Positions 27,145 to 50,586 of a stretch of DNA of 64,000 nt are shown here, piece by piece; position 1 is the stretch's first letter, and each line of letters starts with the position of its first letter. The DNA is from Lentisphaerota bacterium (GTDB taxonomy: Bacteria; Verrucomicrobiota; Kiritimatiellia; JAAZAB01). The stretch covers positions 4,290 to 68,289 of the forward strand of contig JACPGM010000053.1 of assembly GCA_016188985.1 (NCBI GenBank). Direction: 5' to 3'. The notes under the pieces were generated by a model, which saw only the letters and a program-made list of their open reading frames with translations, was not told where the DNA came from and made no database searches. A program made the position numbers and the translations under genes.

Positions 27145-27543
27145 TCACTGGAAATGCGTTAGGATGTACTGGATTGCCGCCGGCAGAGAGGGCAGGATCT
27201 TGGTGCAGTAGCGCACCATCCAGGGACTGCTGTCCTTGAAGCTGAACGGTGAAAAGGCCACCACGAATTTGCCCAGGTCATGCGCGGCGTAAAACACTTC
27301 CATGGCCGTGCCGATGGAGGGTTTGTTGTAATTGACCAGCAGCACCTCCGCGTTGCGAATGTCAGACAAGTCAAATTCCACGATTTCGTTGGCGCTATCC
27401 ACCTCGCGGTCCTTGAAGTTCCGGCGCATGGGATCCAGAATGATGAAGGCGCCGCCGAGTTCCTGGTTGGCCGTCTTGCGCCAGTCGTGGGCCGCGCCGC
27501 CGGCTTCGTCCATGATCGGACCACAGAGGTAAATGGTTTTCAC
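27145..27543 (-). CDS. Nucleoside 2-deoxyribosyltransferase-like protein
   Basis: 'MKTIYLCGPI...', '...VLLVNYNKPSIGTAMEVFYA' (the conserved Glu context of the NDT-like fold), and a length of 132 aa. Confidence 0.65.
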   Translation of the reverse strand: MKTIYLCGPIMDEAGGAAHDWRKTANQELGGAFIILDPMRRNFKDREVDSANEIVEFDLSDIRNAEVLLVNYNKPSIGTAMEVFYAAHDLGKFVVAFSPFSFKDSSPWMVRYCTKILPSLPAAIQYILTHFQ

Positions 27544-27592: not shown

Positions 27593-27621
27593 TTGACCAC
27601 GGACAGGGCGCAACCTATTGT
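27593..27621 (+). promoter_or_regulatory. Candidate sigma70-type promoter for the HU/IHF-hisS operon
   Basis: TTGACC-17 nt-TATTGT lies about 60 nt upstream of the ATG at 27684. The RBS gggagg is present. Confidence 0.3.
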
Positions 27622-27683
27622 CGCTTTGTGAATTAGGTCACAAACGCAAGTAAGCATAATCACGTTCGGGAGGTAATCAAACA

Positions 27684-27971
27684 ATGACCAAACGAGATCT
27701 GGTTGTCCGTATTGCCAGGGAAACCGGGCTGATCCAGCTTGATGTGTTGGCCGTTCTTGAAAAAACGCTTAATTATATCATGGAAAGCCTGGCTAAGGGC
27801 GAAAACGTGGAGTTTCGCAACTTCGGCGTTTTTCAAGTGCGCTTGCGCAAATCCCGCATTGGCCGCAACCCCAATCAGCCCACCCACGTGGTAACCATCC
27901 CTGCCCGTAAAGTGGTCAAATTCAAGATGGGCCGGATCATGAAGGCCCGGGTGATGAAACCCGTCAAGTAA
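27684..27971 (+). CDS. HU/IHF family DNA-binding protein
   Basis: 'MTKRDLVVRIA...', 'VEFRNFGVFQVRLRKSRIGRNPNQP', and a length of 95 aa. Confidence 0.9.
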   Translation: MTKRDLVVRIARETGLIQLDVLAVLEKTLNYIMESLAKGENVEFRNFGVFQVRLRKSRIGRNPNQPTHVVTIPARKVVKFKMGRIMKARVMKPVK

Positions 27972-27973
27972 TA

Positions 27974-29251
27974 ATGGGGAACAACGCCCATTTTGAGCCG
28001 CCGCGCGGCATGCGGGATTTTTACCCCGAAGCTGTTGCCGCGCGCAACGCGCTGTTTGATGCCTGGACCCAATCGTCCCGCCTTTTCGGTTTCAGCCAGT
28101 ATGACGCCTGCGTAGTCGAATCGCTGGAGCTGCTTAAACGCAAGCGCGGCGACGAAATTGTCGAGCAAATCTACGCCTTCAAAGACAAGAGCAACCGGGA
28201 CCTGGCGCTGCGTCCCGAGATGACGCCCACCCTGGCCCGCCTGATTGCCGCACGGCAGGGCCAACTGGCCTTTCCCTTGAAATGGTTTGCCATTGCCCAA
28301 TGTTTCCGCTACGAGCGCATGAGCCGCGGGCGCAAGCGGGAACATTATCAATGGAATCTGGATGTGGTCGGCGAAACGGCCTTGGCTGCCGAGGTGGAAG
28401 TGCTGGCCTGCGCCGCGCACGCCCTGCGCGAGCTCGGCTTAGGCAGCGGCGATTACAAAATCCATATCAATAGTCGGGCTTTGCTGGCCGACCTGTTGAC
28501 GCATTCCGGCGTGGCCCCGGCCTTTCATCCCGCCACTTTTCTGGCCTTGGATAAACGCGGCAAACAGGAAGATGCCGATACCCTCCGGGCCCTCAAAGCA
28601 GCCGCTCTGGATGACAATGCCATCGCCGCCGTGTTCCGGATCATGGGCTTGCAATCGCTGGAGGAGGTCCGCCAATTGTTCGGTGGCGAGCAGCCCGCGC
28701 TCACCGCGCTGCAGACGCTTTTCCAGCTTTTGGCCGAGTATGGCCTGGGTGACATAGCCTGGTTTGATATTGGCATAGTGCGCGGACTGGACTACTACAC
28801 CGGCATAGTCTTCGAAGCGTTTGATGCCGAGCGGCAATTCCGGGCTATTTTTGGCGGCGGCCGGTATGACAATCTGCTCTCCGATCTCGGCGGCGCGCCC
28901 ATGACCGCCGTTGGGCTGGGATTTGGCGACGTGGTGATCGCCGAGCTGCTGGCCGAGAAGGGACGCCTGGTGGCGCAACAGACAAAGCTGGATTATGCCA
29001 TTGGCTATATGGATGATTCTCAGCGCTCCGCCGCGCTGCGCCTGGCTCAGGCTATACGCCGAACCGGACAGAGCGTGGATGTGGCTTTGCACGCGGAAAA
29101 ACCCAAGCAGTTCTTCGCGCGGGCGGGCAAGGGCGCCTTTCAGAAAGCGATCTATGTGGGCCCGGACGACGTAGCCCGCGGCACCGTCCGAATCAAAAAT
29201 CTTGATGAGCGCACGGAGGAGGAAAGGTCTTTGACCGAACTGCTGGGATGA
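27974..29251 (+). CDS. hisS: Histidine--tRNA ligase
   Basis: 'PRGMRDFYPE', 'LRPEMTP', 'FRYERMSRGRKREHYQ' and 'GGGRYDNL'. Length 425 aa. Confidence 0.95.
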   Translation: MGNNAHFEPPRGMRDFYPEAVAARNALFDAWTQSSRLFGFSQYDACVVESLELLKRKRGDEIVEQIYAFKDKSNRDLALRPEMTPTLARLIAARQGQLAFPLKWFAIAQCFRYERMSRGRKREHYQWNLDVVGETALAAEVEVLACAAHALRELGLGSGDYKIHINSRALLADLLTHSGVAPAFHPATFLALDKRGKQEDADTLRALKAAALDDNAIAAVFRIMGLQSLEEVRQLFGGEQPALTALQTLFQLLAEYGLGDIAWFDIGIVRGLDYYTGIVFEAFDAERQFRAIFGGGRYDNLLSDLGGAPMTAVGLGFGDVVIAELLAEKGRLVAQQTKLDYAIGYMDDSQRSAALRLAQAIRRTGQSVDVALHAEKPKQFFARAGKGAFQKAIYVGPDDVARGTVRIKNLDERTEEERSLTELLG

Positions 29252-29335
29252 AATTGGGGGAACAAAGGACGGAAGGGACAATCAGGACAGCAATGACTTC
29301 AAGGATGGCAAGAGATCAGACTTCTGCTGGTCGCC

Positions 29336-29372
29336 GTCTTTGGTGTCCTTGTTGTCCCTTGAGTCCTTTCCC
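29336..29372 (+). repeat. Left copy of a ~37-nt direct repeat flanking the four-helix-bundle cassette
   Basis: gtctttggtgtccttgttgtcccttgagtcctttcc compared with 30009-30045 gtctttggtgtctttgttgtccctttggtcttttgcc. Confidence 0.75.
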
Positions 29373-29387
29373 CACCCGGAGCAAGCC

Positions 29388-29948
29388 ATGAACGCGGGTT
29401 TCATCCCGAAACACGGCGGTTACAAAAAGTTGCTCTCCTACCAGAAGTCCGAGATTGTCTACGATGCCACGGTCTATTTCTGCGATCGTTTCATTGATAA
29501 GCGCAGTCGCACCCATGATCAGATGGTGCAGGCAGCGCGCTCCGGCAAGCAGAACATCATCGAAGGCAGTATGGCCTCCGCGACCTCCAAGGAGACCGAA
29601 ATCACGCTGACCAATGTGGCGCGCGCCAGCCTGGAGGAATTGCTGGGCGATTACCGCGATTTCCTGCGCGGGCGCGGCGTGCAGGAATGGCCGAAAGACC
29701 ACGTCTATGCGCGCCGATTGCGCGCGCTCAACAAGATACCGGATGCTACTTATGCCACCTTTAAAAAAGGCATCGAGAACCCCGACCCGGTAATTTCCGC
29801 CAATGTGATCATCGGCCTGATCCGTGTGGCCAGCTACCTGCTGGATCGGCAGATCCGGCATTTGGAGCGCGCCTTCGTCAAAGAAGGCGGCCTGCGCGAG
29901 CGCATGACCCGCGCCCGTCTCGAAGAACGAAGAAAGTCCGGATCATAA
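29388..29948 (+). CDS. Four-helix-bundle protein (23S-rRNA-IVS-protein family) with a C-terminal suffix domain
   Basis: 'YQKSEIVYDATVYFCDRF', 'QMVQAARSGKQNIIEG' and 'ARASLEELLGDYRDFL' fit the four-helix-bundle family pattern. ATG 29388 was chosen. Confidence 0.8.
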   Translation: MNAGFIPKHGGYKKLLSYQKSEIVYDATVYFCDRFIDKRSRTHDQMVQAARSGKQNIIEGSMASATSKETEITLTNVARASLEELLGDYRDFLRGRGVQEWPKDHVYARRLRALNKIPDATYATFKKGIENPDPVISANVIIGLIRVASYLLDRQIRHLERAFVKEGGLRERMTRARLEERRKSGS

Positions 29949-30008
29949 GCCGCTTTAGATGCCTCAAAGGTCGGCAAATACTGCCAAGGCTCTCATGATT
30001 GCGGGGCT

Positions 30009-30045
30009 GTCTTTGGTGTCTTTGTTGTCCCTTTGGTCTTTTGCC
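30009..30045 (+). repeat. Right copy of the ~37-nt direct repeat flanking the four-helix-bundle cassette
   Basis: See 29336-29372. Confidence 0.75.
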
Positions 30046-30190
30046 GCTCAGGGTAATCGGATGGGAGTGTTAAATGGAACAATCCGGTTCGGTCTCAGGC
30101 TGACCAGGTCCCGGCACAGGTATAGATAACGCATGAAAATCTTACAAATTATTGTTGACTTACTTATTGATATATGTTTAACTTTGGGCC

Positions 30191-30484
30191 ATGAAAAGAA
30201 CCGGACCTAACGATTCGGTGCAGTTTTCCGTCAAAGGCCAGGTGGTCATTCCCCGCCGGCTGCGCCGGGAGTACCATATCGAGGAGGGCACGCGCGCCGT
30301 TGTCCAGGCGACTTCCGAGGGTATTCTGATCAAACCGGTGACCAGGGGTCGCATTCAGCGGTTCCGCGGCATCCTCAAGCGGAAACCGGGCGGGAAACCG
30401 TTTGCCCAGGAGTGGGCCGATCATAAGGCCGAAGAAAAAGCATTGGAGGAGGCCAAGTATGCCCGCCTCGCCGGTTCTCGATAG
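30191..30484 (+). CDS. vapB: AbrB/SpoVT-type antitoxin (VapB-like)
   Basis: 'VKGQVVIPRRLRREYHIEEGTRAVVQATSEGILIKP' is the swapped-hairpin AbrB fold signature. It overlaps the PIN gene. Confidence 0.8.
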   Translation: MKRTGPNDSVQFSVKGQVVIPRRLRREYHIEEGTRAVVQATSEGILIKPVTRGRIQRFRGILKRKPGGKPFAQEWADHKAEEKALEEAKYARLAGSR

Positions 30485-30863
30485 TTTTGCCCTGCTGAGT
30501 TTTCTCCGCGATGAACCTGGGGCGGAGATGGTGGCAACGCTCCTGGAAAAGGCAGAGGAGCGCAGGCACCCCCTTCAGATGACCGAGGTCAATTACGCCG
30601 AGGTCCAATATATCGTTCGCCGCAAGGATGGGGAGGCTGCCTGGCGCATTGTCGCGGACGAACTGGCGACCATGCCCATCGAATTTCGGCCGGCCGACCG
30701 TCCGCTGGCCGATCAGGCCGCCGATTTCAAGACGCGTTTCCAGCTCAGCCTGGCCGCCGCCTTTGCCGCCGCCCTGGCGAAGCTCCGCAAGGCCGTACTT
30801 GTTACCGGCGATCCCGATTTTAAACAGGTTGAGGGTGAAATCGGGATCGGCTGGCTGAAATGA
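30459..30863 (+). CDS. vapC: PIN-domain toxin (VapC-like)
   Basis: 'PVLDSFALLSFLRDEPG', 'VNYAEV' and 'LVTGDPDF'. The expected third acidic residue appears replaced ('LSLAAAF'). ATG 30459 overlaps the antitoxin by 26 nt. Confidence 0.8.
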   Translation: MPASPVLDSFALLSFLRDEPGAEMVATLLEKAEERRHPLQMTEVNYAEVQYIVRRKDGEAAWRIVADELATMPIEFRPADRPLADQAADFKTRFQLSLAAAFAAALAKLRKAVLVTGDPDFKQVEGEIGIGWLK

Positions 30864-31008
30864 CCGCCATGCATTTATACGTCGGTCATGGATAATCGCA
30901 TTGCAATTATACGATAATGATGCAGATTGTCATTGTGAGGAAGCGTGTATTGGCTGAAGTGTTTTTCCCAGCCAGTGTTTACCGTGAGGATGCCGCAGAG
31001 AATTAGCC

Positions 31009-32304
31009 GTGAAAGAATGTGAAACCATAGAATTCAAGAAGAGTCTGTCAGAACTCAAGGAGGGCTTGGTCTCCATTGTGGCCATCCTGAACAAGCATGG
31101 CTCCGGTGAACTGTGGTTTGGCGTCCGCAACGACGGTGTCAGCGTTGGCCTGGATGCCACAACAAAGACCCTTCGTGATGTTTCGCAAGCGATTAGTGCG
31201 CACATTGAACCGAGGATTTTCCCGCACGTCACACTGGAATCCTGCGCCAGGGAGCTGGAGAATCTTATCCTTTCCAGGAATAGCGAGCGACTTCGCTGGG
31301 ACAACAAAGTGTGTGCTGTTTCTATCGGTGACCTGGATAAAGCCGGAATCAGGCGGTTTATCGCGCGTGCCGGACTCGTATGGGATACCCCGACAAATGC
31401 GCTGGAGAAACTCGGACTTCTTCATGCCGGAAAGCTGGTGAATGCGGCCCCGCTGTTCTTTGCGCGAAAGGCTCCGCTGCAACTGCGTTGCGCCGTTTTT
31501 CTGACGACCGAGAGTTCAACAATTATTGACCGGCATGATTTTGACGGCAACATCCTCGAACTGATAGAAGAGGCTCAACGCTACATTCTCAAAAACATCC
31601 ATATCGGCATGCGTGTCAAGGGGCTTTACCGCGAAGACGTGCCGGAAATCTCGGTTGATGCCCTGCGTGAGGCCATTATCAACGCCTTCTGCCATCGTGA
31701 TTACCGCGATCCGGATTATGTGCACGTTGCGATTTTCAAAGACCGCGTCGAAATCCGAAATCCTGGCAGGTTGTTCGGATCACTGACCTTGGACGATTTG
31801 CGCAAAGGATATGTGTCGCAACGGCGCAATCCATTGATCGCCGATCTGTTCCGCCGCATCGAGATGGTGGAAGCCTGGGGTCGCGGCATGCCGTTGATCA
31901 TCAAGAATGCTCCCGACGTCGTGTTTCGCGAAATCGGCAATCTTTTCATCGTTTCCTTCAACCGGCCATCTTATGCGGATGAATCTGGCAGGGGTGATGC
32001 GTCAAGTTCGGGAAAGGAAGTTCCGGTAAGAGGGTTCCTGAAAGAAAGTTCCGGCAAGAAGGTATCTGAAGAAGGTTCGGGAAAGAAGGTTCGGGAAAGA
32101 AGGTTCGGGAAAGATTCTGGAAAAACCGGACATCAAATACTCGATTTCCTTTCACAGCAACCCGAGATGACGGTTCCTGAACTTGCCGGGCGGCTGGGAC
32201 TAACGACTCGCGCGATTGAGAAGCAAATCGCCAAATTGCGGGATGCGAAATTACTGCTTCGCACAGGCGGACGTAAAATAGGGCGTTGGGAGGTGCAGAA
32301 ATGA
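31009..32304 (+). CDS. AlbA_2 (Schlafen-core-like) + HATPase_c_4-like + C-terminal wHTH protein
   Basis: N-terminus 'ECETIEFKKSLSELKEG...GELWFGVRNDG', centre 'EAIINAFCHRDYRDPDYVHVAIFKDRVEIRNPG', C-terminus 'MTVPELAGRLGLTTRAIEKQIAKLRDAKLL'. GTG start. Confidence 0.8.
   Translation: MKECETIEFKKSLSELKEGLVSIVAILNKHGSGELWFGVRNDGVSVGLDATTKTLRDVSQAISAHIEPRIFPHVTLESCARELENLILSRNSERLRWDNKVCAVSIGDLDKAGIRRFIARAGLVWDTPTNALEKLGLLHAGKLVNAAPLFFARKAPLQLRCAVFLTTESSTIIDRHDFDGNILELIEEAQRYILKNIHIGMRVKGLYREDVPEISVDALREAIINAFCHRDYRDPDYVHVAIFKDRVEIRNPGRLFGSLTLDDLRKGYVSQRRNPLIADLFRRIEMVEAWGRGMPLIIKNAPDVVFREIGNLFIVSFNRPSYADESGRGDASSSGKEVPVRGFLKESSGKKVSEEGSGKKVRERRFGKDSGKTGHQILDFLSQQPEMTVPELAGRLGLTTRAIEKQIAKLRDAKLLLRTGGRKIGRWEVQK
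32071..32112 (+). repeat. Perfect 14-nt tandem repeat (GAAGGTTCGGGAAA)x3 inside the AlbA_2-family CDS
   Basis: Three exact head-to-tail units sit inside a longer tract of degenerate 13-14-nt units (about 32003-32125). Confidence 0.9.
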
Positions 32305-32702
32305 CTTCCGCCGTGAAATGTGGGACAACGCGACGACGGACGGCCCGGGGGTGTCAGTTCCACGCGCTTGCGGACATCGAAAAATAAGCAGGAAACCGCT
32401 CCTGGCATTTTGACGGAGTGGATGTTCTGCCGGTGAGCGAGTTTCTGCGCCAGTTGCATCAGGGAAAGGTTTTTTGAAAAACACTAACCGAATATGTTTT
32501 GCCGCCGGAAATAAATATCCCCTTATTAAGGGCCACTGGGACAACAAAAAGCTAACTTCGCGTGAATGCACCCGGCTCCAGAGATACGAAGATTATTGGT
32601 CCAGATTCCGGCTGCGCTATATGTAAAAGTACCACAATCGCAATTCGCACTGGCAGACAGCCAGCCGTCAGAAAAACCAGTTAAAAATATGATATACATG
32701 TG

Positions 32703-34703
32703 ATGAAAACGACTTCAACCCCTCGTCTGACGCGCTCTTGGTTCGTCCGAACCATAGCTGAATTTGAGAGTGCATCTGACGATCAAGTACTTGCCGAACT
32801 GGTCAGGGGCAGTTTGTTTCCCATTCTGCAATCTCAGAGGGATGCTTGGCTCGCAGAACTGCCATTTTTGCGGAGGGCCCTGACCGGCCATACGGGAATG
32901 GTGTACCTTGAGTTCGCAATCCCGAGGATGGGGCATCGCGTTGATGCGGTCGTGTTGATAAACGGGATTGTTTTGGCAATAGAATTCAAGATCGATGCGA
33001 GGGAATACTTTCTGAGCGATGTTGACCAGGTATACGACTACGCGATCGATCTCAAATACTTCCACGAGGCCAGCCATAACCTATCGGTAGTGCCAATTCT
33101 CGTGGCATCACGGGCAAAGACCAGGTTCTTCCTGCTTGCACCACACGCGAGAGTATCTGGACTTTGTCAACCAATCTGCACGAATGCTGAGGATTTGGCA
33201 GCGACCATCAACTGTGTGATAAGCAAGTTGCCTGCGGAATGCGTTGACCCGGCCACATGGGAGGCTTCTCGTTATTGCCCAACCCCCACAATCGTTGAGG
33301 CCGCCCGCGCTCTCTACGCCGGTCATGGCGTCGCCGACATCTCGCGCAACGATGCAGGAGCCATCAATCTGAGCGAGACATCAGAACAGTTAGTGCGAAT
33401 CATTGAAACCTCGAAGTCCTTGGGCCAAAAGGCCATTTGTTTCGTCACCGGAGTGCCGGGTGCCGGGAAGACACTTGTGGGGCTTAACATTGCGACGAAG
33501 TATAACGACCCCAAGAGTGAACTTCATAGTGTGTTTCTTTCGGGGAACGGCCCTCTTGTAGCAATTCTCCGCGAAGCTCTGGCGCGAGACACCATTCAAC
33601 GCGAACGTGTTAAAGGAAACCGACTCAGGAAAGGCGACGCCATGGCACGGGTGAAGGCGTTTATCCAAAACGTACACCATTTTCGGGATGAATGTCTCCT
33701 TGATCAGTCTCGTCCGCCTGTCGATCATGTCGCGTTGTTTGATGAGGCGCAACGCGCCTGGGATCAGGAGCAGACGGCCTTGTTTATGCGCCGCAAGAAG
33801 GGGGTCACAGGCTTCAACGTATCGGAGCCAGAGTTCCTGATTTCGTGCATGGATCGGCGCAACGATTGGGCGGTGATTGTTTGCCTTGTCGGCGGAGGGC
33901 AAGAGATCAACACTGGGGAGGCCGGCATTGGGGAATGGATTGAGGCCGTGCAACGCGCATTTGGCGAGTGGCACCTGTACATCTCTCCTGCGTTAACGGA
34001 TAGCGAATATGGCGCGGGAAAACTTCTCGAAGCAATCAGGAACCGCGCTAATGTGCACTACCTGCAGGAACTTCATCTTGGCGTCTCAATGCGCTCATTT
34101 CGAGCCGAAAAGGTTTCGGCCTTCGTCAAGATGGTTTTGGATTTCGAAATTACCCGAGCGCGGGATCTATTGCAGGAGTTTGAGGGTCGCTATCCCATCG
34201 TGTTGACCCGCAATTTGGACCTCGCAAGACAATGGTTGCGCGATCAAGCCAGTGGAAACGAGCGGTTTGGGATTGTTGTATCATCGCAGGCAGAGCGATT
34301 GAAACCATATGCCATTGATGTTCGAACGCCTGTGAATCCTGTGAAGTGGTTTCTCGATGGAAAAGACGATGTGCGGTCATCGTACTACCTTGAAGATGTT
34401 GCGACCGAATTTCATGTACAAGGGCTTGAGCTCGACTGGGTGTGCGTATCGTGGGACGGCGATTTTCGCTACAACGAACACGGCTGGCAGCACCTCTCAT
34501 TTCGCGGCACCAAGTGGCAGCGCATCAACAAGGCTTCCAGAAAAAACTACCTCAAGAATGCCTATCGTGTCCTACTCACACGGGCGCGTCAGGGAATGGT
34601 GATATTCATTCCTGAAGGAAGTTCAACTGATCCAACAAGGCATCCGAGTTACTATGACTCGACTTTTGCCTACTTGCGGTCAATTGGGCTGCGCGAGTTG
34701 TAG
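32703..34703 (+). CDS. DUF2075-type P-loop NTPase/helicase-like protein with an N-terminal PD-(D/E)XK-like nuclease core
   Basis: 'RVDAVVLINGIVLAIEFK' (D...ExK), Walker A 'GVPGAGKT', Walker B 'ALFDEAQRAW' and C-terminus 'YRVLLTRARQGMVIF'. Length 666 aa. Confidence 0.85.
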   Translation: MKTTSTPRLTRSWFVRTIAEFESASDDQVLAELVRGSLFPILQSQRDAWLAELPFLRRALTGHTGMVYLEFAIPRMGHRVDAVVLINGIVLAIEFKIDAREYFLSDVDQVYDYAIDLKYFHEASHNLSVVPILVASRAKTRFFLLAPHARVSGLCQPICTNAEDLAATINCVISKLPAECVDPATWEASRYCPTPTIVEAARALYAGHGVADISRNDAGAINLSETSEQLVRIIETSKSLGQKAICFVTGVPGAGKTLVGLNIATKYNDPKSELHSVFLSGNGPLVAILREALARDTIQRERVKGNRLRKGDAMARVKAFIQNVHHFRDECLLDQSRPPVDHVALFDEAQRAWDQEQTALFMRRKKGVTGFNVSEPEFLISCMDRRNDWAVIVCLVGGGQEINTGEAGIGEWIEAVQRAFGEWHLYISPALTDSEYGAGKLLEAIRNRANVHYLQELHLGVSMRSFRAEKVSAFVKMVLDFEITRARDLLQEFEGRYPIVLTRNLDLARQWLRDQASGNERFGIVVSSQAERLKPYAIDVRTPVNPVKWFLDGKDDVRSSYYLEDVATEFHVQGLELDWVCVSWDGDFRYNEHGWQHLSFRGTKWQRINKASRKNYLKNAYRVLLTRARQGMVIFIPEGSSTDPTRHPSYYDSTFAYLRSIGLREL

Positions 34704-34714
34704 ACCGCTAATGC

Positions 34715-35080
34715 TTGCATCCATCTGACGTAACCGCTTCCCGACGCGGAGACATTCTTGCCGTCGGCGAAGGACAGGTTTTCCACATCGAGAGTTCCTT
34801 CGATTCCCTTAGCCGTATCGGATCCATCATGCAGATACAGGAGACGCAGAAAGAGGGGGATATGCCTATGGAGTTTTCCCCGGAAGGCGACAAGATTGTC
34901 ATCTTTCTGTCCAAGAGCGATTTTGCGGAATCATGCCCGGCAGGTTATTTCGATGTAAAACAAAACGGAACCCCATGCGGTGAAGCAGGGCACGCACCAG
35001 CCTTTCGGGTTTTGTGTCTTTACACCGAATGCGGCTCATGTTCCAACTGCGTTGCTGTGGCGTTAAAATATCAATCATAG
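34715..35080 (+). CDS. Hypothetical small Cys-rich protein (weak call)
   Basis: ORF only, with no recognisable motif. An internal Met (MQIQETQ...) is the more plausible start. Confidence 0.2.
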   Translation: MHPSDVTASRRGDILAVGEGQVFHIESSFDSLSRIGSIMQIQETQKEGDMPMEFSPEGDKIVIFLSKSDFAESCPAGYFDVKQNGTPCGEAGHAPAFRVLCLYTECGSCSNCVAVALKYQS

Positions 35081-35463
35081 CGTCATTGCCTCTATTTGCT
35101 CTCCACTGTTGAGTAGACGATTTATCAAGGGAGGCTTGCGATCATCATTAAAGCCGGGACGTCAAGAGGCTCGAAGCGGACAAGTCTATTTCTGTTCTGT
35201 GCCTGCGCCGCTTGCATGTTCACAGCGGTTTTGAATGTATCAGGGCATATCCGGAAAAGCCAGTTGAAATCCACATAAATCCTCCTACGCCCAACGTCAG
35301 GCTATGAAGGACGGGACGGAGGGCGGAATGACGTACGCCGGACGCCGGCCGGAGTGTCCTCATCCGTCGCTCCAAGAGCTATGGATGGCAGGCAGGGAAC
35401 TTTTCATTGTTTTAATATGTAGATAGTTGTTGACAAGTCCCTACATTATGAAACACTGCCGTC

Positions 35464-36069
35464 ATGAGCACTAAGGCAAAATCTATTCTGGAACTCGCTC
35501 GGTATAAAGGGTTCATCAGGGCGCGCGACCTTATTCAGCACGCGATTCCAACTGTGTATCTTGGACGACTGACCCACTTGGGTCTGCTGGAGCGCGTTAG
35601 CCGCGGGCTGTATCGCCTGCCGGATTCTGAAGTGACGGAGCACTATTCACTGGCAGAGGTGGCCGCCAAGGTGCCGGGCGGGGTGGTTTGTCTGCTTTCG
35701 GCGCTCAACTTCCATATTATTGGCACACAACAGCCGCACGAGGTATGGCTGGCAATCCCGGAGAAGGCGCGCCAACCACGACTGAAAAGTCCGCGCCTGC
35801 GCCTATTCCGCTTCTCCAAGTCGGCCTTCACGGAGGGCGTAGAGACTCACGTTATCCAAGGGATACCGGTGAAGGTGTATAGCCCGGCCAAGACTGTAGC
35901 CGACTGCTTCAAGTATCGAAATAAAATCGGACTGGATGTAGCCATGGAAGCGCTCCGGGAAAGTCTGCGGTCCCGTAAGTGCACGCGGGAGGACATTCAT
36001 CGTTATGCCCGGATATGCCGGGTGTGGAATGTCATGCGGCCCTACCTGGAAATGGAGGCTTCGTCGTGA
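35464..36069 (+). CDS. AbiEi-family type IV TA antitoxin (wHTH, AbiEi_4-like N-terminus)
   Basis: 'ILELARYKGFIRARDLIQHAIPTVYLGRLTHLGLLERVSRGLYRL' is the characteristic AbiEi N-terminal wHTH. Length 201 aa. Confidence 0.8.
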   Translation: MSTKAKSILELARYKGFIRARDLIQHAIPTVYLGRLTHLGLLERVSRGLYRLPDSEVTEHYSLAEVAAKVPGGVVCLLSALNFHIIGTQQPHEVWLAIPEKARQPRLKSPRLRLFRFSKSAFTEGVETHVIQGIPVKVYSPAKTVADCFKYRNKIGLDVAMEALRESLRSRKCTREDIHRYARICRVWNVMRPYLEMEASS

Positions 36070-36245
36070 CTCGCGCACAACCCGTGAATGATTCAACGAT
36101 AGAGCCCAGGAGGCGCAAATAACGAACAAGCCTATTTCTGGGCCTGCGCGCCCGGAATGGTGTCCCACCTTCGTCTAAAGGGCTTCCACCGTCGCCCCTT
36201 CGACTTCGCTCAGGGCTTCGCAGGGCAGGCTGGTGTCTCCCTTCC

Positions 36246-38066
36246 TTATTCTCCGGGCTGTCGTCTGGTGTCTGTCGTCAGTCGTCGGTCTTCGGGCTTG
36301 GGCGGCAGGGCGAGCTTCAGGTGCAATTCGCGGAGTTGTTTTTCGGTGACGCCGGCGGGCGCGCCCATCATCAGGTCCTGTGCCTTCTGATTCATGGGGA
36401 AGGCAATGACTTCGCGAATGTTAGCTTCATTGGCCAACAGCATCAGAATGCGGTCAATGCCGGGGGCAATGCCGCCGTGCGGCGGCGCGCCCAGCCGGAA
36501 GGCGTTGATCAATCCACCAAAGCGCTCATCCACGGCTTGTTGATCATAGCCGGCCAGGGCGAAAGCCCGATACATGATTTCGGGATCGTGGTTCCGGATC
36601 GCGCCGCTGGAAAGCTCCACGCCGTTGCAGATAATGTCATATTGATAGGCCCGGATCGCGAGCGGGTCTTGTTCCTCCAGGGCTTGCATGCCGCCCTGCG
36701 GCATCGAAAATGGATTGTGCGAGAAAATGATCTGGCCGGTTTCCTCGTCCCGTTCAAACATCGGGAAATCAGTGACCCAGCAAAACCGGAAAATCCCCTC
36801 ATCAATCAGCTTCAGGTCCTGAGCCAGTTTCACGCGCAGGTCGGCGGTGATGCGGTTGACCTCGCGCGGCCGGTCGCAGACGAAGAACACCACGTCGCTG
36901 GCGTGAACTTCGCACTGCATGGCAATCGCTTCAAGCTGCGCGGGAGTCAGGAATTTGACAATTGGTCCCTTAACCCCCGCATCGGTCCAGACCAGGTACG
37001 CCAGGCCTTTAGCGCCCAGCCCCTTGGCATAATCCGTGAGCTTGTCAAAGAAACTCCGCGGCTGGGCGGCAATTTTCCCGACGGGGATCGCCCGCACAAT
37101 TCCGCCCTGCTCGATGACCGAGCGGAAAGCGTTGAAGCCGGATTCCTTGAAAAGGGCGGTCAGGTCGCGCATTTCGATCGGAATCCGCAAATCCGGCTTA
37201 TCGGTCCCGTATTTCAACATGGCTTCCGCATAAGGGATGCGCGGGAAAGGCGGAGCGTTAAATGGTTTCCGGGAGAATGTCCGGAATACGCTGGCCAGCA
37301 CATCCTCGACGACGACGAAGACATCGTCCTGGGTGGCGAACGCCATTTCGAGATCCAACTGGTAAAATTCGCCGGGGGAGCGGTCGGCGCGGGCATCCTC
37401 GTCGCGGAAGCAGGGCGCGATCTGGAAATAGCGGTCAAACCCGGCGACCATCAGCAACTGCTTGAACTGCTGGGGGGCCTGGGGCAAGGCATAAAACTTT
37501 CCGGGATGCACGCGGCTGGGCACGAGGTAGTCGCGGGCGCCCTCCGGGGAACTGCTGGTCAGGATCGGGGTCTGGAATTCCTGGAACCCCAGGGAGAGCA
37601 TACGCTCGCGGATAAAAGCGATTACACGGGCGCGTTGAACAATGTTGCCGTGCAGCCGCTCCCGGCGCAGGTCCAGGTAGCGGTAGCGCAGGCGCAGATC
37701 TTCCGGGCCGTCTTCCATCGCGTCCACCGGAAAGGGCAAGCTGCCGCAGGGTGAAAGCACCTGGATGGCTTCCGCCACCAGCTCGATTTCGCCCGTTGCC
37801 AGATTGGGGTTAACCGTTTCCGGCGAGCGCGCCACCACGGCGCCGGTGACGGTAATGACGCTTTCCAGGTGCAGGCGCTTGCTCAGGTTGAAAAATTCGC
37901 GGTCGGGCTGAATTACCACCTGGGTCAATCCGTAATGATCGCGCAGGTCAATAAACAGCAGTTGACCATGGTCGCGTTTGCGATAAACCCAGCCGGCCAG
38001 GCGCGCGCTCCTGGAAATATCGGTTGCTCGTAATTCACCGCAGGTGCGCGTACGATAAGGATGCAT
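36246..38066 (-). CDS. aspS: Aspartate--tRNA ligase
   Basis: 'RTRTCGELR', 'FIDLRDHYG', '[17 protein letters not shown]', 'QLDLEMAF' and '[12 protein letters not shown]'. Start 38066 (MHPYRTRT) was chosen. Confidence 0.96.
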
Positions 38067-38120
38067 GGGGAATTTTCGATTTATGATTGGTGATTTTTGG
38101 TGACTACTCAGGTCATTCAA

Positions 38121-38241
38121 CTGTTCCAGCGGCCGCACAGGCTGTGCGGCCCTACCATATTTTCATGCCATAGGCAGACCCGCCTATGGCGGGACATCTT
38201 CCCATTGGTAGGGCGGGACAGTCTTGTCCCGCCGGCTTTGC
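38121..38241 (-). repeat. Composite REP cluster, family B, copy 2 (inverted)
   Basis: See 12063-12225. Confidence 0.75.
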
Positions 38242-38291
38242 GATAGATGACTTAAGCAGATACGATTTTTGTTTATTTTCTTCAGTTGTGG

Positions 38292-39284
38292 TTATGCCGG
38301 AGGTGCGGACTGTTGATTGTCAGCCGATTCCGTGTTGAAAACGCCCATCGTCCGGAATTTTTTATAGCGCTGCTCGATGAGCTCGGCGGGCGCTACTCTT
38401 TTCAGGTCGCGCAAATGGTGCAACCAGCGCTGTTTCAGCGTTGCGGCCATGGTCTTGGGATCCGTATGCGCGCCTCCTAACGGTTCGGGCACGATCTCGT
38501 CCACCAGGCCGGCTTGCAACAGGTCCGGGGCGGTCAGTTTGAGCGCGGCGGCCGCCTGGCCGGTGAAGGCCCGGTCTTTCCACAGGATCGCCGCGCAGCC
38601 TTCGGGCGAAATCACCGAATAATAGGCGTGTTCCAGGATCAGGATGCGATCGCCCACGCCGATGCCCAGCGCCCCGCCGCTGCCGCCCTCGCCGATCACG
38701 GTGACAATGATGGGAACCTTGAGGAGAAATAATTCGCGTAGATTCGTGGCAATGGCCTCGGCCACGTGACGCTCCTCGCTGCCTACGCCGGGATACGCGC
38801 CGGGCGTGTCAATCAGGGTCAGAATCGGGCAGGCGAATTTGGCCGCCAGTTTCATCAGACGCAGCGCCTTGCGGTAGCCTTCGGGATGGGCCATGCCGAA
38901 ATTATGGGTCACGTTGCTTTTAACGTCGCGCCCCTTCTGCGTGCCCAGAATCATGACCGGTTCGTTATCCAGGCGCGCCCAGCCGCCGATCATGGCCTGG
39001 TCGTCGGCATAATGCCGGTCGCCATGCAGCTCGATAAAATCCGTGCAGATCGCTTCAATATAGTCCCGCGTATAAGGGCGCTGGGGATGGCGCGCCAGTT
39101 GCACTTTGTCCCAGGCGCTCAGGTTCTGAAAAATGGCGCGCTTGGTCTCGGCGATTTGTTTTTGCAGTTCGGCCAGTTCGGCCGAGACATCAATGTTTTG
39201 CGCGGCGCTGAAGGCGCGCAGCTCCTGGAGCTTGTTTTCCAGCTCCAGAATGGGCGCTTCGAACGGTAACGAATAGGTTGCCAT
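38292..39284 (-). CDS. accA: Acetyl-CoA carboxylase carboxyltransferase subunit alpha
   Basis: 'ARHPQRPYTRDYI', 'GHPEGYRKALRLMKLAAKF', 'TPGAYPGVGSEERHVAEAIA' and 'GEGGSGGALGIG'. Confidence 0.95.
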   Translation of the reverse strand: MATYSLPFEAPILELENKLQELRAFSAAQNIDVSAELAELQKQIAETKRAIFQNLSAWDKVQLARHPQRPYTRDYIEAICTDFIELHGDRHYADDQAMIGGWARLDNEPVMILGTQKGRDVKSNVTHNFGMAHPEGYRKALRLMKLAAKFACPILTLIDTPGAYPGVGSEERHVAEAIATNLRELFLLKVPIIVTVIGEGGSGGALGIGVGDRILILEHAYYSVISPEGCAAILWKDRAFTGQAAAALKLTAPDLLQAGLVDEIVPEPLGGAHTDPKTMAATLKQRWLHHLRDLKRVAPAELIEQRYKKFRTMGVFNTESADNQQSAPPA

Positions 39285-39320
39285 GGAATGAATCCCGCCT
39301 GAAAACGGAGCTGGCCGCTG

Positions 39321-40235
39321 CTATTCAGCGATGGCCACTGGCGTTCCGAGGGGCAGAAGCAAAAACAGTTCTTCGGCGTTGTTGTTGGCCAGGCGCACGC
39401 AGCCGGCGCTGGCTTGCTGGCCGATGGTTTCCGGTTGCCAGGTGCCGTGCAAACCGTAGCCGCGCACCGCCGGAGTCTCGCCGGTGGCGGTCAAGCTCAT
39501 CCAGCGCGTCCCCAGGATGTTTTCCTTGTCGCCATAAGGAACCATCTTGCCGTCCGGCCGCCACCAGTCCGGCTGCTCGATCTTGTCGGTAATCACGAAA
39601 GTGCCGACGGGCGTTGAGCCGTATTTGCCGGTGCCAACGCGGTAGCGCTTGAAAAAACGGTTGTTGACCGAAAGCACCAGATCGTTGCGGCTCTTGCTGA
39701 TGGCCAGTTGACAGGCGCCTTTGAAGACCAGCAAGCGGTCGCCCGGATGCAGCATGGGCCGGTCAAGCGCATTGCTTTTTTTGATCAGTTCGGCGGTAGT
39801 CTTGAATTTCCTGGCAATGCGCTCCAGGTTATCGCCGGACTGAACGAGGTACTCCTCTTTTTCGGGCATGGCCGCCGGCGATAAAAGCAACTCGAAGTTG
39901 ATTTGTCCCAGCAAGGTCTCCAACGATTGCCTTAGCTCCTGGTCTAAACTCTGCGCCAGCAGCTCGTAGCCCTTGGCGCGGGCCTCGGCGAGCGACTTGT
40001 TGGCATAGAGCGCGCGAATTGTCTGCCAAGCCCGCTGCTGGGGCTTGACGGTCGGCTGCGCGCTGACTGGCCGGGAAAGCGCTTGCGCACTACGCCTGGT
40101 TGAAGCCCGGCACGAACGGATCAGAACGACGGTGGCGATGCCGGCAGTGACGAGTAAAATAACCAGCAAGAATACAGCTAACCGGGAACGACGTTCCGGG
40201 CCTTGAATCATCAGGTTATCCAGGTCATCAGCCAT
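39321..40235 (-). CDS. LysM domain-containing L,D-transpeptidase (YkuD family)
   Basis: N-terminal TM segment. LysM 'YLVQSGDNLERIARKFKTTAELIKKSN'. YkuD catalytic 'GLHGT...SAGCVRL'. Confidence 0.85.
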   Translation of the reverse strand: MADDLDNLMIQGPERRSRLAVFLLVILLVTAGIATVVLIRSCRASTRRSAQALSRPVSAQPTVKPQQRAWQTIRALYANKSLAEARAKGYELLAQSLDQELRQSLETLLGQINFELLLSPAAMPEKEEYLVQSGDNLERIARKFKTTAELIKKSNALDRPMLHPGDRLLVFKGACQLAISKSRNDLVLSVNNRFFKRYRVGTGKYGSTPVGTFVITDKIEQPDWWRPDGKMVPYGDKENILGTRWMSLTATGETPAVRGYGLHGTWQPETIGQQASAGCVRLANNNAEELFLLLPLGTPVAIAE

Positions 40236-49630: not shown

Positions 49631-50527
49631 TCAATATGTGAGGAGGAGGCGATCATGGACGACCTCATCCTCAAGCGATTCGCCCTCTCTCTGAAAACGC
49701 CGCAGCATGCTTCTGCCGCAATCCAAGAACACTTCTCGCTCAAATAGACCGTCCGGGATTCCCAGTTTACAGTCCACGCGACCGGATTTCTTTTTGCCGT
49801 CAATACTTAGGGCAACCCGAACACCGCGTGTCTTGCAGTAGGCAATGGCGCGCATCAACCGCTGCAAAGAGAAGTCTTGCCCCCGGTACAAGATTGCCTG
49901 ACTACAGACATAGGGCGGGTCGCAGTACACAAGATCTCTCTCCTTGGCCAGAGACATAGCCTCTTCAAAGTCCATCTGCCGGAAGTCCGCCCCTGCCGTC
50001 CGCCGCAGCCATATGTCAACACGCTGCGCGAATGATCCCGGCGCGATAGGGTCGTGAATGCCGCATGGCGTCGAAATGTACCCATCGCTCTTGCGAAACC
50101 GGACAACCCCTCCGTAGCAACTCCGGCAAATGAACAAGAGATCAGGGCCATTCGGCTTGGCGTTGTAGTTTGCCTTTATCTGCTCGTATCCAGCCGGTTT
50201 GCCTAATTCTCGGAATTCGGTGTACCGACTTCTGTACCACTCCGCGAGTTGGTTGGGGGAATCGTGAAGACACCGCCAAATCTCCATGAGCGGGCCGCAG
50301 ATATCGGAACCCACGGCAGCCGGAGGCTGAAGTGCTGCAAGAACGGCCCCACTTCCCAGGAACGGCTCCCGATATGTGTGAATGTCTGTCGGGAAAAACG
50401 ACGCTATCTTGTGAGCAAACCGTTGCTTGTTCCCTATCCACTTTAGAAGCTGGGTCTTGAACGGAGCCACGTGCTGGAACTCAGTTCCGTAGAACAGATC
50501 GAGAGTATCTTCTTCTTTGACTTTCAT
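49631..50527 (-). CDS. N6-adenine DNA methyltransferase, Dam/D12 class (RM-associated)
   Basis: 'LKWIGNKQR', motif I 'EPFLGSGAV' and motif IV 'YCDPPYV'. The start at 50527 leaves a 59-nt divergent control region. The longer ORF to 50569 is possible. Confidence 0.85.
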   Translation of the reverse strand: MKVKEEDTLDLFYGTEFQHVAPFKTQLLKWIGNKQRFAHKIASFFPTDIHTYREPFLGSGAVLAALQPPAAVGSDICGPLMEIWRCLHDSPNQLAEWYRSRYTEFRELGKPAGYEQIKANYNAKPNGPDLLFICRSCYGGVVRFRKSDGYISTPCGIHDPIAPGSFAQRVDIWLRRTAGADFRQMDFEEAMSLAKERDLVYCDPPYVCSQAILYRGQDFSLQRLMRAIAYCKTRGVRVALSIDGKKKSGRVDCKLGIPDGLFEREVFLDCGRSMLRRFQREGESLEDEVVHDRLLLTY

Positions 50528-50537
50528 GACGTGCCTA

Positions 50538-50561
50538 CAATATCCCGATTTGGGATTATTG
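50538..50561. promoter_or_regulatory. Candidate C-box/operator palindrome between the divergent methylase and controller genes
   Basis: caatatccc-gattt-gggattattg has imperfect 9-10-nt arms. A TATACT -10-like box (50574-50579) lies 7 nt before the GTG at 50587. Confidence 0.3.
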
Positions 50562-50586
50562 TCAACCATATTATATACTCCCTCAC

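What the first reader, a model, noticed from the sequence alone, without database searches (positions are those of the whole stretch)
29252..36245. ~7 kb lower-GC accessory island wedged between hisS and aspS
Seen: two core aminoacyl-tRNA synthetase genes bracket a stretch whose composition is visibly more AT-rich than the flanks, especially 31.0-35.5 kb. All of its genes are accessory types. In order they are a four-helix-bundle cassette, an AbrB/PIN TA pair, the AlbA_2-family gene, the DUF2075 gene, a weak small ORF, and AbiEi. Long ORF-poor spacers lie at 32305-32702 and 35081-35463. No integrase or transposase is present. Inference: this is an old horizontally acquired defence/TA island that has lost its mobility genes.
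Basis: partly seen in the sequence, partly recalled or inferred. Interest (0 to 1): 0.55.

Follow-up and report, generated by a model that had tools for sequence, protein, structure and literature searches.

The report
Patchwork defence islet between hisS and aspS
A 7-kb stretch wedged between two essential tRNA-synthetase genes of a Lentisphaerota bacterium is a real foreign insert: a patchwork of toxin-antitoxin and anti-phage genes, built up and partly decayed in several steps rather than arriving as one old island, which is an ordinary kind of bacterial defence hotspot.

Summary
Window 29252-36245 is the lowest-GC 7-kb stretch (0.537 vs 0.579) and has the strongest tetranucleotide deviation. 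It carries only accessory genes and no integrase or transposase. In 24 of 27 related loci with convergent hisS and aspS, the two genes lie -10 to 463 bp apart, so this is an insertion.

The "one old island that lost its mobility genes" reading is only partly right. A relative (L090, hisS 76% identical) shares a backbone: 4HB cassette, AbrB-PIN pair and AbiEi. That backbone has host-like GC3 (0.65-0.73).

The low-GC core is specific to this lineage:
- A 1.47-kb AlbA_2 gene insertion.
- A 2.65-kb patch that replaces an HNH nuclease gene. It holds a C5-methylase remnant, an intact DUF2075 nuclease-helicase (PADLOC candidate PDC-S41), a PDC-M33B fragment and a vsr fragment.

DUF2075 is 88-92% nucleotide-identical to copies in unrelated genomes, so it is a comparatively recent transfer. 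AbiEii was truncated and then deleted, which leaves an AbiEi that is still under selection.

Verdict: an ordinary core-gene-flanked defence hotspot. The one unusual piece is a phylum-spanning 4HB gene bracketed by 9-nt-unit hairpin arrays.

The parts
27974..29251 (+). hisS, left core flank
   Evidence: TIGR00442, 322.6 bits. In 24 of 27 related convergent loci it lies within -10 to 463 bp of aspS.
29257..29373 (.). Long hairpin made of inverted arrays of 9-nt units (AAGGACNNN / NNNGTCCTT), directly upstream of the 4HB ORF
   Evidence: Arms 29264-29297 / 29336-29369. RNA fold -63.7 kcal/mol, z = -5.2. The same arrays, in the same register to the ATG (-52, -43, -34, -25), occur in 5 independent cassettes.
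29388..29948 (+). Four-helix-bundle protein with suffix domain (23S rRNA IVS protein / Avd superfamily)
   Evidence: TIGR04258 76.8 bits, TIGR02436 24.2 bits, PF05635 22.5 bits (below cut-off). 100% identical to NCBI MBI2440623.1. More than 8000 homologs, and the top 120 are all at least 79% identical.
30006..30045 (.). Extra copy of the GTCCTT arm downstream of the 4HB ORF
   Evidence: 85% direct repeat of 29333-29372. Duplex with 29258-29300 is -47.4 kcal/mol, against -26 +/- 4 for shuffles.
30191..30484 (+). AbrB/MazE-fold antitoxin of a VapBC-like pair
   Evidence: PF04014 26.7 bits, TIGR01439 29.6 bits. 85% aa identity to L090. dN/dS 0.40.
30459..30863 (+). PIN-domain toxin (VapC-like); overlaps the antitoxin gene by 26 nt
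   Evidence: PF01850 64 bits. 93% aa identity to L090; dN/dS 0.13.
30935..32400 (.). Insertion 1, absent from L090 (lies between L090 positions 12561 and 12573)
   Evidence: blastn map of window against L090; junction sequences.
31009..32304 (+). AlbA_2 (Schlafen-like) + HATPase_c_4 + winged-HTH protein
   Evidence: PF04326 43 bits, PF13749 70 bits, HTH_11/HTH_24. GC3 0.57. Nearest other homologs are 79%, 73% and 71% identical. Nucleotide homology to L088/L089 is limited to 30994-32305.
32401..32502 (+). Backbone fragment ending ...WHFDGVDVLPVSEFLRQLHQGKVF*; family not assigned
   Evidence: 87.5% identical to L090 12573-12676, where it directly follows the TA pair. No Pfam, PADLOC or plasmid hit.
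32503..35151 (.). Insertion/replacement 2. Occupies the place of L090 12677-13646, which holds a PIN 3' remnant and an HNH_2 nuclease gene
32525..32699 (+). Decayed 3' end of a C5 cytosine DNA-methyltransferase gene, co-transferred with DUF2075
   Evidence: 75% nucleotide identity to L084 595-783, where a 42-aa ORF carries a weak PF00145 hit. The peptide KKLTSRECTRLQRYEDYW matches L084's RKLTPRECARLQGYEDSW. Weak PADLOC MTase_II hit, E = 0.006.
32700..34703 (+). Intact DUF2075 protein: PD-(D/E)xK-like N-terminal domain + SF1B (Schlafen group 3-type) helicase; PADLOC candidate single-gene system PDC-S41
34742..34928 (+). Internal fragment of a PDC-M33B-like gene (profile positions 129-190 of 289)
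   Evidence: PADLOC PDLC04583, E = 3.1e-10, 37.9 bits.
34935..35078 (-). First ~48 codons of a vsr (very-short-patch repair endonuclease) gene, truncated
   Evidence: PF03852 47.6 bits, residues 3-48 against profile 2-47 of 74; TIGR00632 positions 1-48 of 119.
35162..35208 (.). Left copy of an imperfect ~45-nt direct repeat that brackets the AbiE module
   Evidence: Both copies are also present in L090 (13678-13701 and 15173-15196).
35405..35458 (.). Inverted repeat with 26-nt arms just upstream of abiEi; candidate AbiEi operator
   Evidence: Conserved in window and L090. AbiEi autoregulates through inverted repeats (PMC3985639, PMC7319586).
35464..36069 (+). abiEi, a type IV antitoxin / transcriptional regulator, now without its toxin
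   Evidence: PADLOC AbiEi 281 bits; PF13338 41.9 bits. 96% aa identity to L090, dS 0.15, dN/dS 0.15.
36066..36122 (+). Scar of abiEii: 8 N-terminal codons (the GTG start codon plus 7) joined to a 10-codon tail (566-bp internal deletion relative to L090)
   Evidence: L090 abiEii itself covers only profile positions 4-198 of 299.
36106..36149 (.). Right copy of the direct repeat; contains the terminator-like hairpin of aspS (36126-36147, minus strand)
36246..38138 (-). aspS, right core flank
   Evidence: NF001750, 810.9 bits.

Best explanation
The stretch is a composite defence/toxin-antitoxin islet. It built up piece by piece in the short terminator spacer between two convergent essential genes, hisS and aspS, where an insertion breaks no promoter or operon.

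Older backbone, shared with a related lineage:
- a hairpin-bracketed four-helix-bundle gene
- an AbrB-PIN (VapBC-like) toxin-antitoxin pair
- remnants of further TA genes
- an AbiE module flanked by a duplicated copy of the aspS terminator region

Later events in this lineage:
1. An AlbA_2/HATPase_c_4/HTH gene was inserted.
2. An HNH nuclease gene was replaced by a patch made of a methylase remnant, an intact DUF2075 nuclease-helicase and fragments of two other genes.
3. The already truncated toxin gene abiEii was deleted through a short microhomology.

What is probably still working (inferred from intact reading frames, conserved catalytic residues and low dN/dS):
- The PIN RNase held in check by its AbrB antitoxin.
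- The DUF2075 protein as a single-gene Nhi-like nuclease-helicase against phage DNA.
- AbiEi as a self-regulating DNA-binding protein without a toxin.
- The AlbA_2 protein, of unknown role.

The islet has no means of moving itself. Pieces enter and leave by recombination of incoming DNA and by deletion. That route is inferred, not shown.
For: Insertion: 24 of 27 convergent hisS/aspS loci have gaps of -10 to 463 bp, against 6994 bp here.

Foreign composition.

Shared backbone and lineage-specific core: the blastn map against L090 shows shared blocks 27607-29942, 30136-30934, 32401-32502 and 35152-36146, and window-only blocks 30935-32400 and 32503-35151.

Layers of different age:
- GC3 is 0.70-0.73 for 4HB, AbrB and PIN, 0.65 for AbiEi, 0.57-0.58 for AlbA_2 and DUF2075, and 0.71-0.74 for core genes.
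- DUF2075 is 88-92% nucleotide-identical to copies in loci of GC 0.48, 0.60 and 0.64 with unrelated neighbours. The homology stops 4-5 nt after the stop codon.
- Its dS of 0.21-0.40 is lower than the core-gene dS of 0.59-0.86 against L090.

Decay:
- C5-methylase remnant.
- vsr and PDC-M33B fragments.
- abiEii truncated in L090 and deleted here.
- Homologous abiEi genes are normally followed by an abiEii of about 300 aa.

Function retained:
- dN/dS is 0.13-0.21 for PIN, AbiEi and 4HB.
- DUF2075 matches PDC-S41 over its full length and has invariant nuclease and Walker motifs.
- The inverted repeat upstream of abiEi is conserved.

No mobility gene.
Against: - Only one relative (L090) carries the backbone, so the order of events rests on a two-genome comparison. 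AlbA_2 and DUF2075 could in principle have been lost from L090 rather than gained here, although their GC3 and their close homologs elsewhere argue for gain.
- Island genes are less diverged between the two genomes (dS 0.15-0.40) than the flanking core genes (0.59-0.86). The backbone may therefore have been exchanged between lineages after they split rather than simply inherited. No recombination tract reaching into hisS or aspS was seen.
- All functions are inferred from sequence. PDC-S41 is only a candidate defence gene, and no paper in the library mentions it.
- The data come from metagenome assemblies.
Confidence: 0.8

Rival explanations
1. One reading: one old, horizontally acquired island that arrived as a unit on a mobile element and later lost its integrase or transposase.
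For: - The backbone is shared, with identical junctions, with a relative whose hisS is only 76% identical.
- There are many decayed fragments.
- A ~45-nt direct repeat brackets the AbiE module, which could be an old att duplication.
Against: - The low-GC core is missing from L090 and consists of two separate blocks.
- GC3 and dS show at least two age layers.
- DUF2075 is nearly identical to copies in unrelated genomes.
- No integrase or transposase remnant was found in any frame.
- No repeat spans the whole island.
Confidence: 0.1
2. AlbA_2 and DUF2075 are the two halves of a split Schlafen-like defence system and work together. Eukaryotic group 3 Schlafens fuse an AlbA_2-type core to a DUF2075 helicase.
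For: - The two genes are adjacent and co-oriented.
- Pfam names both domains after Schlafen.
- The model of the DUF2075 protein is closest to SLFN11 and SLFN14.
Against: - None of six DUF2075 contexts at 80-93% identity has an AlbA_2 neighbour.
- The AlbA_2 homolog context examined (L088/L089) has no DUF2075.
- The two genes lie in separate insertion blocks, divided by 102 bp of old backbone and a methylase remnant.
- DUF2075 already carries its own nuclease-like N-domain.
Confidence: 0.05
3. The region is ancestral to the clade and was deleted in the relatives, or it is an assembly artefact. Either way it would not be an acquired island.
For: - hisS and aspS are neighbours throughout the group, so the site is ancient.
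- The data are metagenome assemblies.
Against: - 24 of 27 loci spread across the clade have under 0.5 kb between the genes.
- Composition is atypical.
- The closest homologs of DUF2075, AlbA_2 and 4HB are in other phyla and in other contexts.
- Independent contigs confirm the hisS-4HB junction (L001) and the backbone (L090).
Confidence: 0.03

Closest known systems
Core-gene-flanked defence hotspots without identifiable mobilisation (P. aeruginosa core defence hotspots, PMC10250203; some E. coli hotspots, PMC10121019)
   Same: A fixed chromosomal site between conserved core genes. It is usually empty or short in relatives. It is occupied by varying sets of defence and TA genes, with no integrase or transposase.
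   Different: The site here is the spacer between convergent hisS and aspS in Lentisphaerota. Occupancy is rare: defence content was seen in this lineage and L090 only. Two other large inserts at the same junction hold other content: the L098 genes look metabolic on N-terminal sequence alone, and the L111 genes were not run against any family library. 'Hotspot' is therefore only weakly supported.
Nhi (S. epidermidis SERP2475; bioRxiv 10.1101/776245) and Nhi-like (bioRxiv 10.1101/2022.05.11.491447)
   Same: A single polypeptide with an N-terminal PD-(D/E)xK-type nuclease domain and a DUF2075 SF1B helicase domain.
   Different: There is no meaningful sequence similarity to Nhi: the PADLOC Nhi model touches only the P-loop, E = 7e-5. 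The protein belongs to the untested candidate family PDC-S41.
AbiE type IV toxin-antitoxin / abortive infection system (PMC3985639)
   Same: AbiEi has both of its domains, and an inverted repeat lies upstream of the gene.
   Different: The toxin AbiEii is reduced to an 18-codon scar, so the system as such is gone.
VapBC-type type II toxin-antitoxin pairs
   Same: A small AbrB/MazE-fold antitoxin gene overlaps a downstream PIN-domain toxin gene.
   Different: Nothing notable. Activity was not tested.
23S rRNA intervening-sequence proteins and DGR Avd (PF05635 superfamily)
   Same: Four-helix-bundle protein. As in rRNA intervening sequences, the ORF is associated with long complementary arms.
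   Different: The gene is not in an rRNA gene and no reverse transcriptase is nearby. It carries the TIGR04258 suffix domain. The arms are arrays of 9-nt AAGGACNNN units in a fixed register to the start codon, which I found described nowhere in the paper library.

Membership tests
Genomic / defence island | Absent from the same site in related genomes | tested here: met
   24 of 27 convergent hisS/aspS loci have a gap of -10 to 463 bp. Only L090 shares part of the content.
Genomic / defence island | Composition differs from the host genome | tested here: met
   Lowest-GC 7-kb window and largest tetranucleotide deviation. GC3 is 0.57-0.58 for AlbA_2 and DUF2075, against 0.71-0.74 for core genes. 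The backbone genes are host-like.
Genomic / defence island | Enriched in defence or TA genes | tested here: met
   PIN/AbrB, AbiEi, PDC-S41, a PDC-M33B fragment, vsr and methylase remnants.
Genomic / defence island | Integrase or transposase, tRNA target, and flanking att repeats (classical mobile island) | tested here: not met
   No such domain was found. The only tRNA in the window is at 53294. No island-wide repeat was found; only a module-level repeat around AbiE.
PDC-S41 (PADLOC candidate single-gene defence) | Full-length match to the family model | tested here: met
   919.9 bits, profile positions 2-653 of 657.
PDC-S41 (PADLOC candidate single-gene defence) | Occurs as a stand-alone gene | tested here: met
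   Six contexts with unrelated neighbours.
Nhi / Nhi-like nuclease-helicase | DUF2075 SF1B helicase domain with ATPase motifs | tested here: met
   PF09848 277.7 bits. Invariant G251-T258 and D348-E349. Fold is closest to SLFN11, RecD, Dna2 and Upf1.
Nhi / Nhi-like nuclease-helicase | N-terminal PD-(D/E)xK nuclease domain | tested here: inconclusive
Nhi / Nhi-like nuclease-helicase | Sequence membership in the Nhi family | tested here: not met
   PADLOC Nhi model: E = 7.3e-5, 19.6 bits, P-loop region only.
Nhi / Nhi-like nuclease-helicase | Protects against phage | not testable with these tools
   Needs an experiment.
AbiE system | AbiEi antitoxin | tested here: met
   PADLOC 281 bits; PF13338 and PF09407.
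AbiE system | AbiEii nucleotidyltransferase toxin in a bicistronic operon | tested here: not met
   Only an 18-codon scar remains at 36066-36122. Homologous modules have an AbiEii of about 300 aa.
VapBC-like type II TA | PIN toxin and an overlapping upstream antitoxin gene | tested here: met
   PF01850 64 bits; PF04014 26.7 bits; 26-nt overlap.
Split Schlafen-like two-gene system (AlbA_2 + DUF2075) | Conserved adjacency of the two genes | tested here: not met
Integron cassette (considered for the 4HB gene) | attC site at the 3' end of the ORF and an IntI integrase nearby | tested here: not met
   In most copies the hairpin lies upstream of the ORF. No integrase is present in the window region. 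The core-site consensus was not seen.

The most novel reading that the evidence does not exclude
The module nearest hisS may be an instance of an undescribed, phylum-spanning cassette of about 0.7-0.8 kb.

What was seen:
- The four-helix-bundle 'suffix' gene is extremely conserved: at least 79% aa identity across Lentisphaerota, Acidobacteriota and Deltaproteobacteria, even though synonymous sites are saturated.
- In all six independent copies examined, the gene is bracketed by inverted arrays of 9-nt AAGGACNNN units.
- In five of the six, the arrays keep the same register to the start codon.

What it could be:
- a relative of 23S rRNA intervening sequences, that is, an RNase III-processed, self-insulating selfish cassette; or
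- a protein plus structured-RNA or operator pair.

It may also be the first settler that opened this junction to further insertions.
Probability: 0.2. Interest if true: 0.6.

Novelty: new member of a known kind. Interest (0 to 1): 0.35.

Why it matters
The main result is ordinary. It adds one more example, from a little-studied phylum, of defence and TA genes piling up between core genes without any mobility machinery.

Its use is as a worked case. Comparison with one relative dates the layers, shows gene-sized pieces being swapped in and out, and catches an antitoxin outliving its toxin.

It also gives an intact, recently spreading PDC-S41 nuclease-helicase as a candidate for testing.

It flags the hairpin-bracketed 4HB cassette, about which the paper library held nothing.

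Tried and rejected
- **Split Schlafen system (AlbA_2 + DUF2075).** Rejected: the two genes are never adjacent in the other contexts examined, and they lie in separate insertion blocks.
- **Island-wide att repeats.** None found.
- **Integrase or transposase remnants in the spacers.** Six-frame segments gave nothing in Pfam or PADLOC apart from a weak methylase hit.
- **Fragment ...HFDGVDVLPVSEFLRQLHQGKVF*.** No hit in Pfam, PADLOC or plasmid tblastn. It reminds me of a VapC C-terminus, but that is memory only and was not tested.
- **PDC-M33B fragment as a remnant of L090's HNH gene.** No similarity.
- **Phage carriage.** DUF2075 and 4HB have no relatives in the viral contigs. AbiEi has only 43-60% identical relatives there.
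- **Site-specific 3' boundary of the DUF2075 gene.** Homology ends at stop+4 against the window. However, other copies share 15-45 nt more with each other, so this is flank trimming, not a fixed recombination site.
- **Rfam.** No family matches the hairpin.
- **Covariation on the hairpin.** The alignment is unreliable because the 9-nt units slip in register.
- **Motif hit in L083.** It lies inside a coding region with no hairpin, so it is a chance match.
- **Source-contig look-up.** The AlbA_2 protein was not on record.
- **Other low-GC patches of the window (19-20 kb, 55-57 kb).** No sign of islands.
Full report
**1. Source and observation**

The window comes from a Lentisphaerota metagenome-assembled genome. 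The AlbA_2, 4HB and AbiEi proteins are identical to NCBI MBI2440626.1, MBI2440623.1 and MBI2440629.1, on an 83,999-bp contig. The best aspS matches among species representatives are Lentisphaerota/Victivallales MAGs at 62-69%.

hisS (27974-29251, +) and aspS (36246-38138, -) are convergent and bracket 6,994 bp. That stretch is the lowest-GC 7-kb window: 0.537, against 0.579 for the rest. Other 7-kb windows have mean 0.576, sd 0.014 and minimum 0.552. It also has the largest tetranucleotide deviation: z-score correlation 0.40-0.42 and L1 distance 0.25-0.26 at 30-36 kb.

There is no tRNA or Rfam family in the stretch, and no integrase or transposase domain in any ORF or spacer reading frame.

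**2. It is an insertion**

I scanned genomes with aspS and metagenomes with hisS.
- 27 loci carry the same convergent hisS/aspS pair, usually with HU upstream of hisS and a LysM/YkuD gene beyond aspS.
- In 24 of them the two stop codons are -10 to 463 bp apart.
- The three exceptions are L098 (3.5 kb), L111 (9.8 kb) and L090 (4.2 kb). L098's two genes look like a flavin reductase-like protein and a 923-aa protein, judged from N-terminal sequence alone. L111 carries other genes. The genes of L098 and L111 were not run against any family library.
- In 30 further loci aspS is not within 2.5-10 kb of hisS, so synteny is not universal.
- In Kiritimatiellales, HU, hisS and aspS are adjacent but co-directional.

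**3. Comparison with L090 resolves the history**

L090 (Ga0247842_10005242) is the closest relative found: ilvD 83%, hisS 76% and aspS 85% aa identity. Its order is hisS - 4HB (81%) - AbrB (85%) - PIN (93%) - ... - AbiEi (96%) - aspS.

The nucleotide map gives these shared blocks:
- 27607-29942
- 30136-30934
- 32401-32502
- 35152-36088
- 36085-36146

Two blocks exist only in the window:
- 30935-32400, the AlbA_2 gene with short flanks. It lies between L090 positions 12561 and 12573.
- 32503-35151. In L090 this place is taken by a second PIN 3' remnant and an HNH_2 nuclease gene (PADLOC HNH 315 bits).

L090's island has a much shallower GC dip (0.543 against 0.566).

**4. Ages of the layers**

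| Genes | GC3 |
|---|---|
| Core genes | 0.71-0.74 |
| 4HB, AbrB, PIN | 0.70-0.73 |
| AbiEi | 0.65 |
| AlbA_2, DUF2075 | 0.57-0.58 |

The DUF2075 protein has homologs at 94% identity and downward. Copies at 88-93% identity sit among unrelated neighbours, in loci whose remaining sequence has GC 0.64, 0.48 and 0.60. Nucleotide identity of 88-92% is confined to the gene; window homology runs from 32525, 32676 or 32698 to 34707. dS to those copies is 0.21-0.40. That is less than the 0.59-0.86 between the core genes of the window and L090. This gene has therefore spread between distant hosts more recently than these two lineages split. Named homologs at 64-69% are from Chlorobiaceae, Hydrogenedentota and Falkowbacteria.

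AlbA_2 is less recent. Its nearest other homologs are 79%, 73% and 71% identical, and dS to L088 is 0.9.

The backbone genes are also less diverged between the window and L090 (dS 0.15-0.40) than the flanking core genes. Identity rises inside the island genes and falls again in hisS and aspS. This suggests that the backbone or its genes were exchanged between the lineages after they diverged. That is an inference; no recombination tract was traced.

**5. The spacers are scars**

- *Spacer 1, backbone piece.* 32401-32502 ends ...WHFDGVDVLPVSEFLRQLHQGKVF*. It is conserved in L090, and its family is unassigned.
- *Spacer 1, methylase remnant.* From 32525 on there is the decayed 3' end of a C5 cytosine methyltransferase gene. 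It came in together with DUF2075. The same remnant precedes the 93%-identical copy in L084 (KKLTSRECTRLQRYEDYW against RKLTPRECARLQGYEDSW), with a weak PF00145 hit there and a weak MTase_II hit here.
- *Weak ORF 34715-35080.* This is not a gene. Residues 10-71 match positions 129-190 of the 289-position PADLOC model PDC-M33B (E = 3e-10). The opposite strand encodes the first ~48 residues of Vsr. The two fragments abut near 34930.
- *AbiE direct repeat.* The AbiE module is bracketed by an imperfect ~45-nt direct repeat (35162-35208 and 36106-36149). The right copy contains the terminator-like hairpin downstream of aspS. Both copies are conserved in L090. This fits duplication of the target on insertion, but it does not prove it.
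- *abiEii.* In L090, abiEii covers only model positions 4-198 of 299. In the window a further 566 bp are missing, leaving an 18-codon scar at a TGAA-type microhomology. Related modules in viral contigs have an AbiEii of about 300 aa directly after AbiEi.

**6. What probably still works (inferred)**

- *AbrB-PIN.* An ordinary VapBC-like pair, with PIN dN/dS 0.13.
- *DUF2075.* The protein is full length against PDC-S41.
  - 31 homologs keep E71, D82, E95, K97, the Walker A motif G251-T258 and D348-E349 invariant.
  - The predicted structure (pLDDT 78) is closest to the SLFN11 and SLFN14 helicase modules, RecD, Dna2 and Upf1.
  - This is the architecture of Nhi and Nhi-like defence proteins (bioRxiv 10.1101/776245; 10.1101/2022.05.11.491447), but without sequence membership in Nhi. 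No paper in the library mentions PDC-S41.
- *AbiEi.* The gene is intact, with dN/dS 0.15, and keeps a conserved 26-nt-arm inverted repeat just upstream. This fits its known self-repression (PMC3985639, PMC7319586). It may persist as a regulator or as protection against incoming AbiEii toxins.
- *AlbA_2/HATPase_c_4/wHTH.* Its role is unknown.

**7. Split Schlafen rejected**

DUF2075 never has an AlbA_2 neighbour in six other contexts. The AlbA_2 homolog context examined has no DUF2075. In the window, old backbone and a methylase remnant separate the two genes.

**8. The 4HB cassette**

This is the least ordinary part.
- *Conservation.* The ORF has more than 8000 homologs, and the top 120 are all at least 79% identical although they come from different phyla. 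Cross-phylum dS is saturated (about 1.2), dN/dS is about 0.09, and gene GC follows the host. This indicates strong constraint rather than recent spread.
- *Arrays.* All six independent copies fetched have arrays of 9-nt units, AAGGACNNN and its complement, next to the ORF. In five copies they form a ~100-120-nt hairpin whose 3' units sit exactly at -52, -43, -34 and -25 from the ATG. In L202 one array precedes the ATG and a full hairpin straddles the stop codon. L090 has hairpins on both sides. The window has an extra downstream arm.
- *Specificity.* Paired arrays occur nowhere else in the 2.57 Mb of sequence held.
- *Prior knowledge.* No Rfam family matches, and no paper mentions TIGR04258 or TIGR02436.
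- *Limit.* A covariation test was not informative, because the units slip in register.

I could not decide between an rRNA-intervening-sequence-like processed cassette, a transposition-related bookend and a protein-binding site.

**9. Verdict**

This is a real but ordinary defence/TA islet at a core-gene junction. It was assembled and eroded stepwise and has no mobility machinery, comparable to the defence hotspots described in E. coli and P. aeruginosa (PMC10121019, PMC10250203).

Noticed in passing
window 29257-30048; also L090 10942-11750, L192 3899-4561, L197 3854-4561, L199 3899-4558, L202 1455-2175: The four-helix-bundle 'suffix' gene is always bracketed by inverted arrays of 9-nt AAGGACNNN units that form a long hairpin. 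In five of six copies the arrays hold a fixed register to the start codon. The protein is at least 79% identical across phyla. No Rfam family or paper describes this.
   Followed up: partly
window 32006-32128: Six overlapping copies of a repeat with 14-nt spacing (GTTCGGGAAAGAAG-like) lie inside the AlbA_2 gene, in the linker before the HTH domain. The period is not a multiple of three. Homologs are 435-470 aa against 431 aa here, so the linker length may vary by slippage.
   Followed up: no
L090 12679-12787: The relative carries a second, orphan copy of the last 109 nt of the PIN gene (84% to window 30755-30863), right after the conserved unassigned fragment. This looks like a trace of a further decayed TA module.
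   Followed up: partly
L098 11322-14659; L111 11263-21047: Two other Lentisphaerota-like contigs have large inserts at the same hisS/aspS junction, with different content. In L098 the two genes look like a flavin reductase-like protein and a 923-aa protein, judged from N-terminal sequence only. In L111 the genes are several large ORFs. None of these genes was run against a family library. The junction accepts insertions of more than one kind.
   Followed up: partly
window 27684-40235; L039, L043, L062: HU-hisS-aspS is a conserved neighbourhood across Lentisphaerota (convergent hisS and aspS) and Kiritimatiellales (all co-directional). accA sits between aspS and the LysM/YkuD gene only in the window and the L098/L105 group.
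   Followed up: partly
window 35464-36069 versus L090 13941-14546: Island genes are much less diverged between the two genomes (AbiEi dS 0.15, AbrB 0.20, PIN 0.30, 4HB 0.40) than the flanking core genes (0.59-0.86). The spacers inside the island align poorly (51-71%). This suggests exchange of the genes between lineages after the split. The cause was not resolved.
   Followed up: partly
window 49631-50569 (-): A D12-class N6-adenine DNA methyltransferase gene (PF02086, 82.8 bits). It may be part of a restriction-modification system elsewhere in the window.
   Followed up: no
window 27145-27543 (-): A nucleoside 2-deoxyribosyltransferase-like gene lies between ilvD and HU. It is conserved at the same place in L090-L093 (75-83% aa identity).
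   Followed up: no
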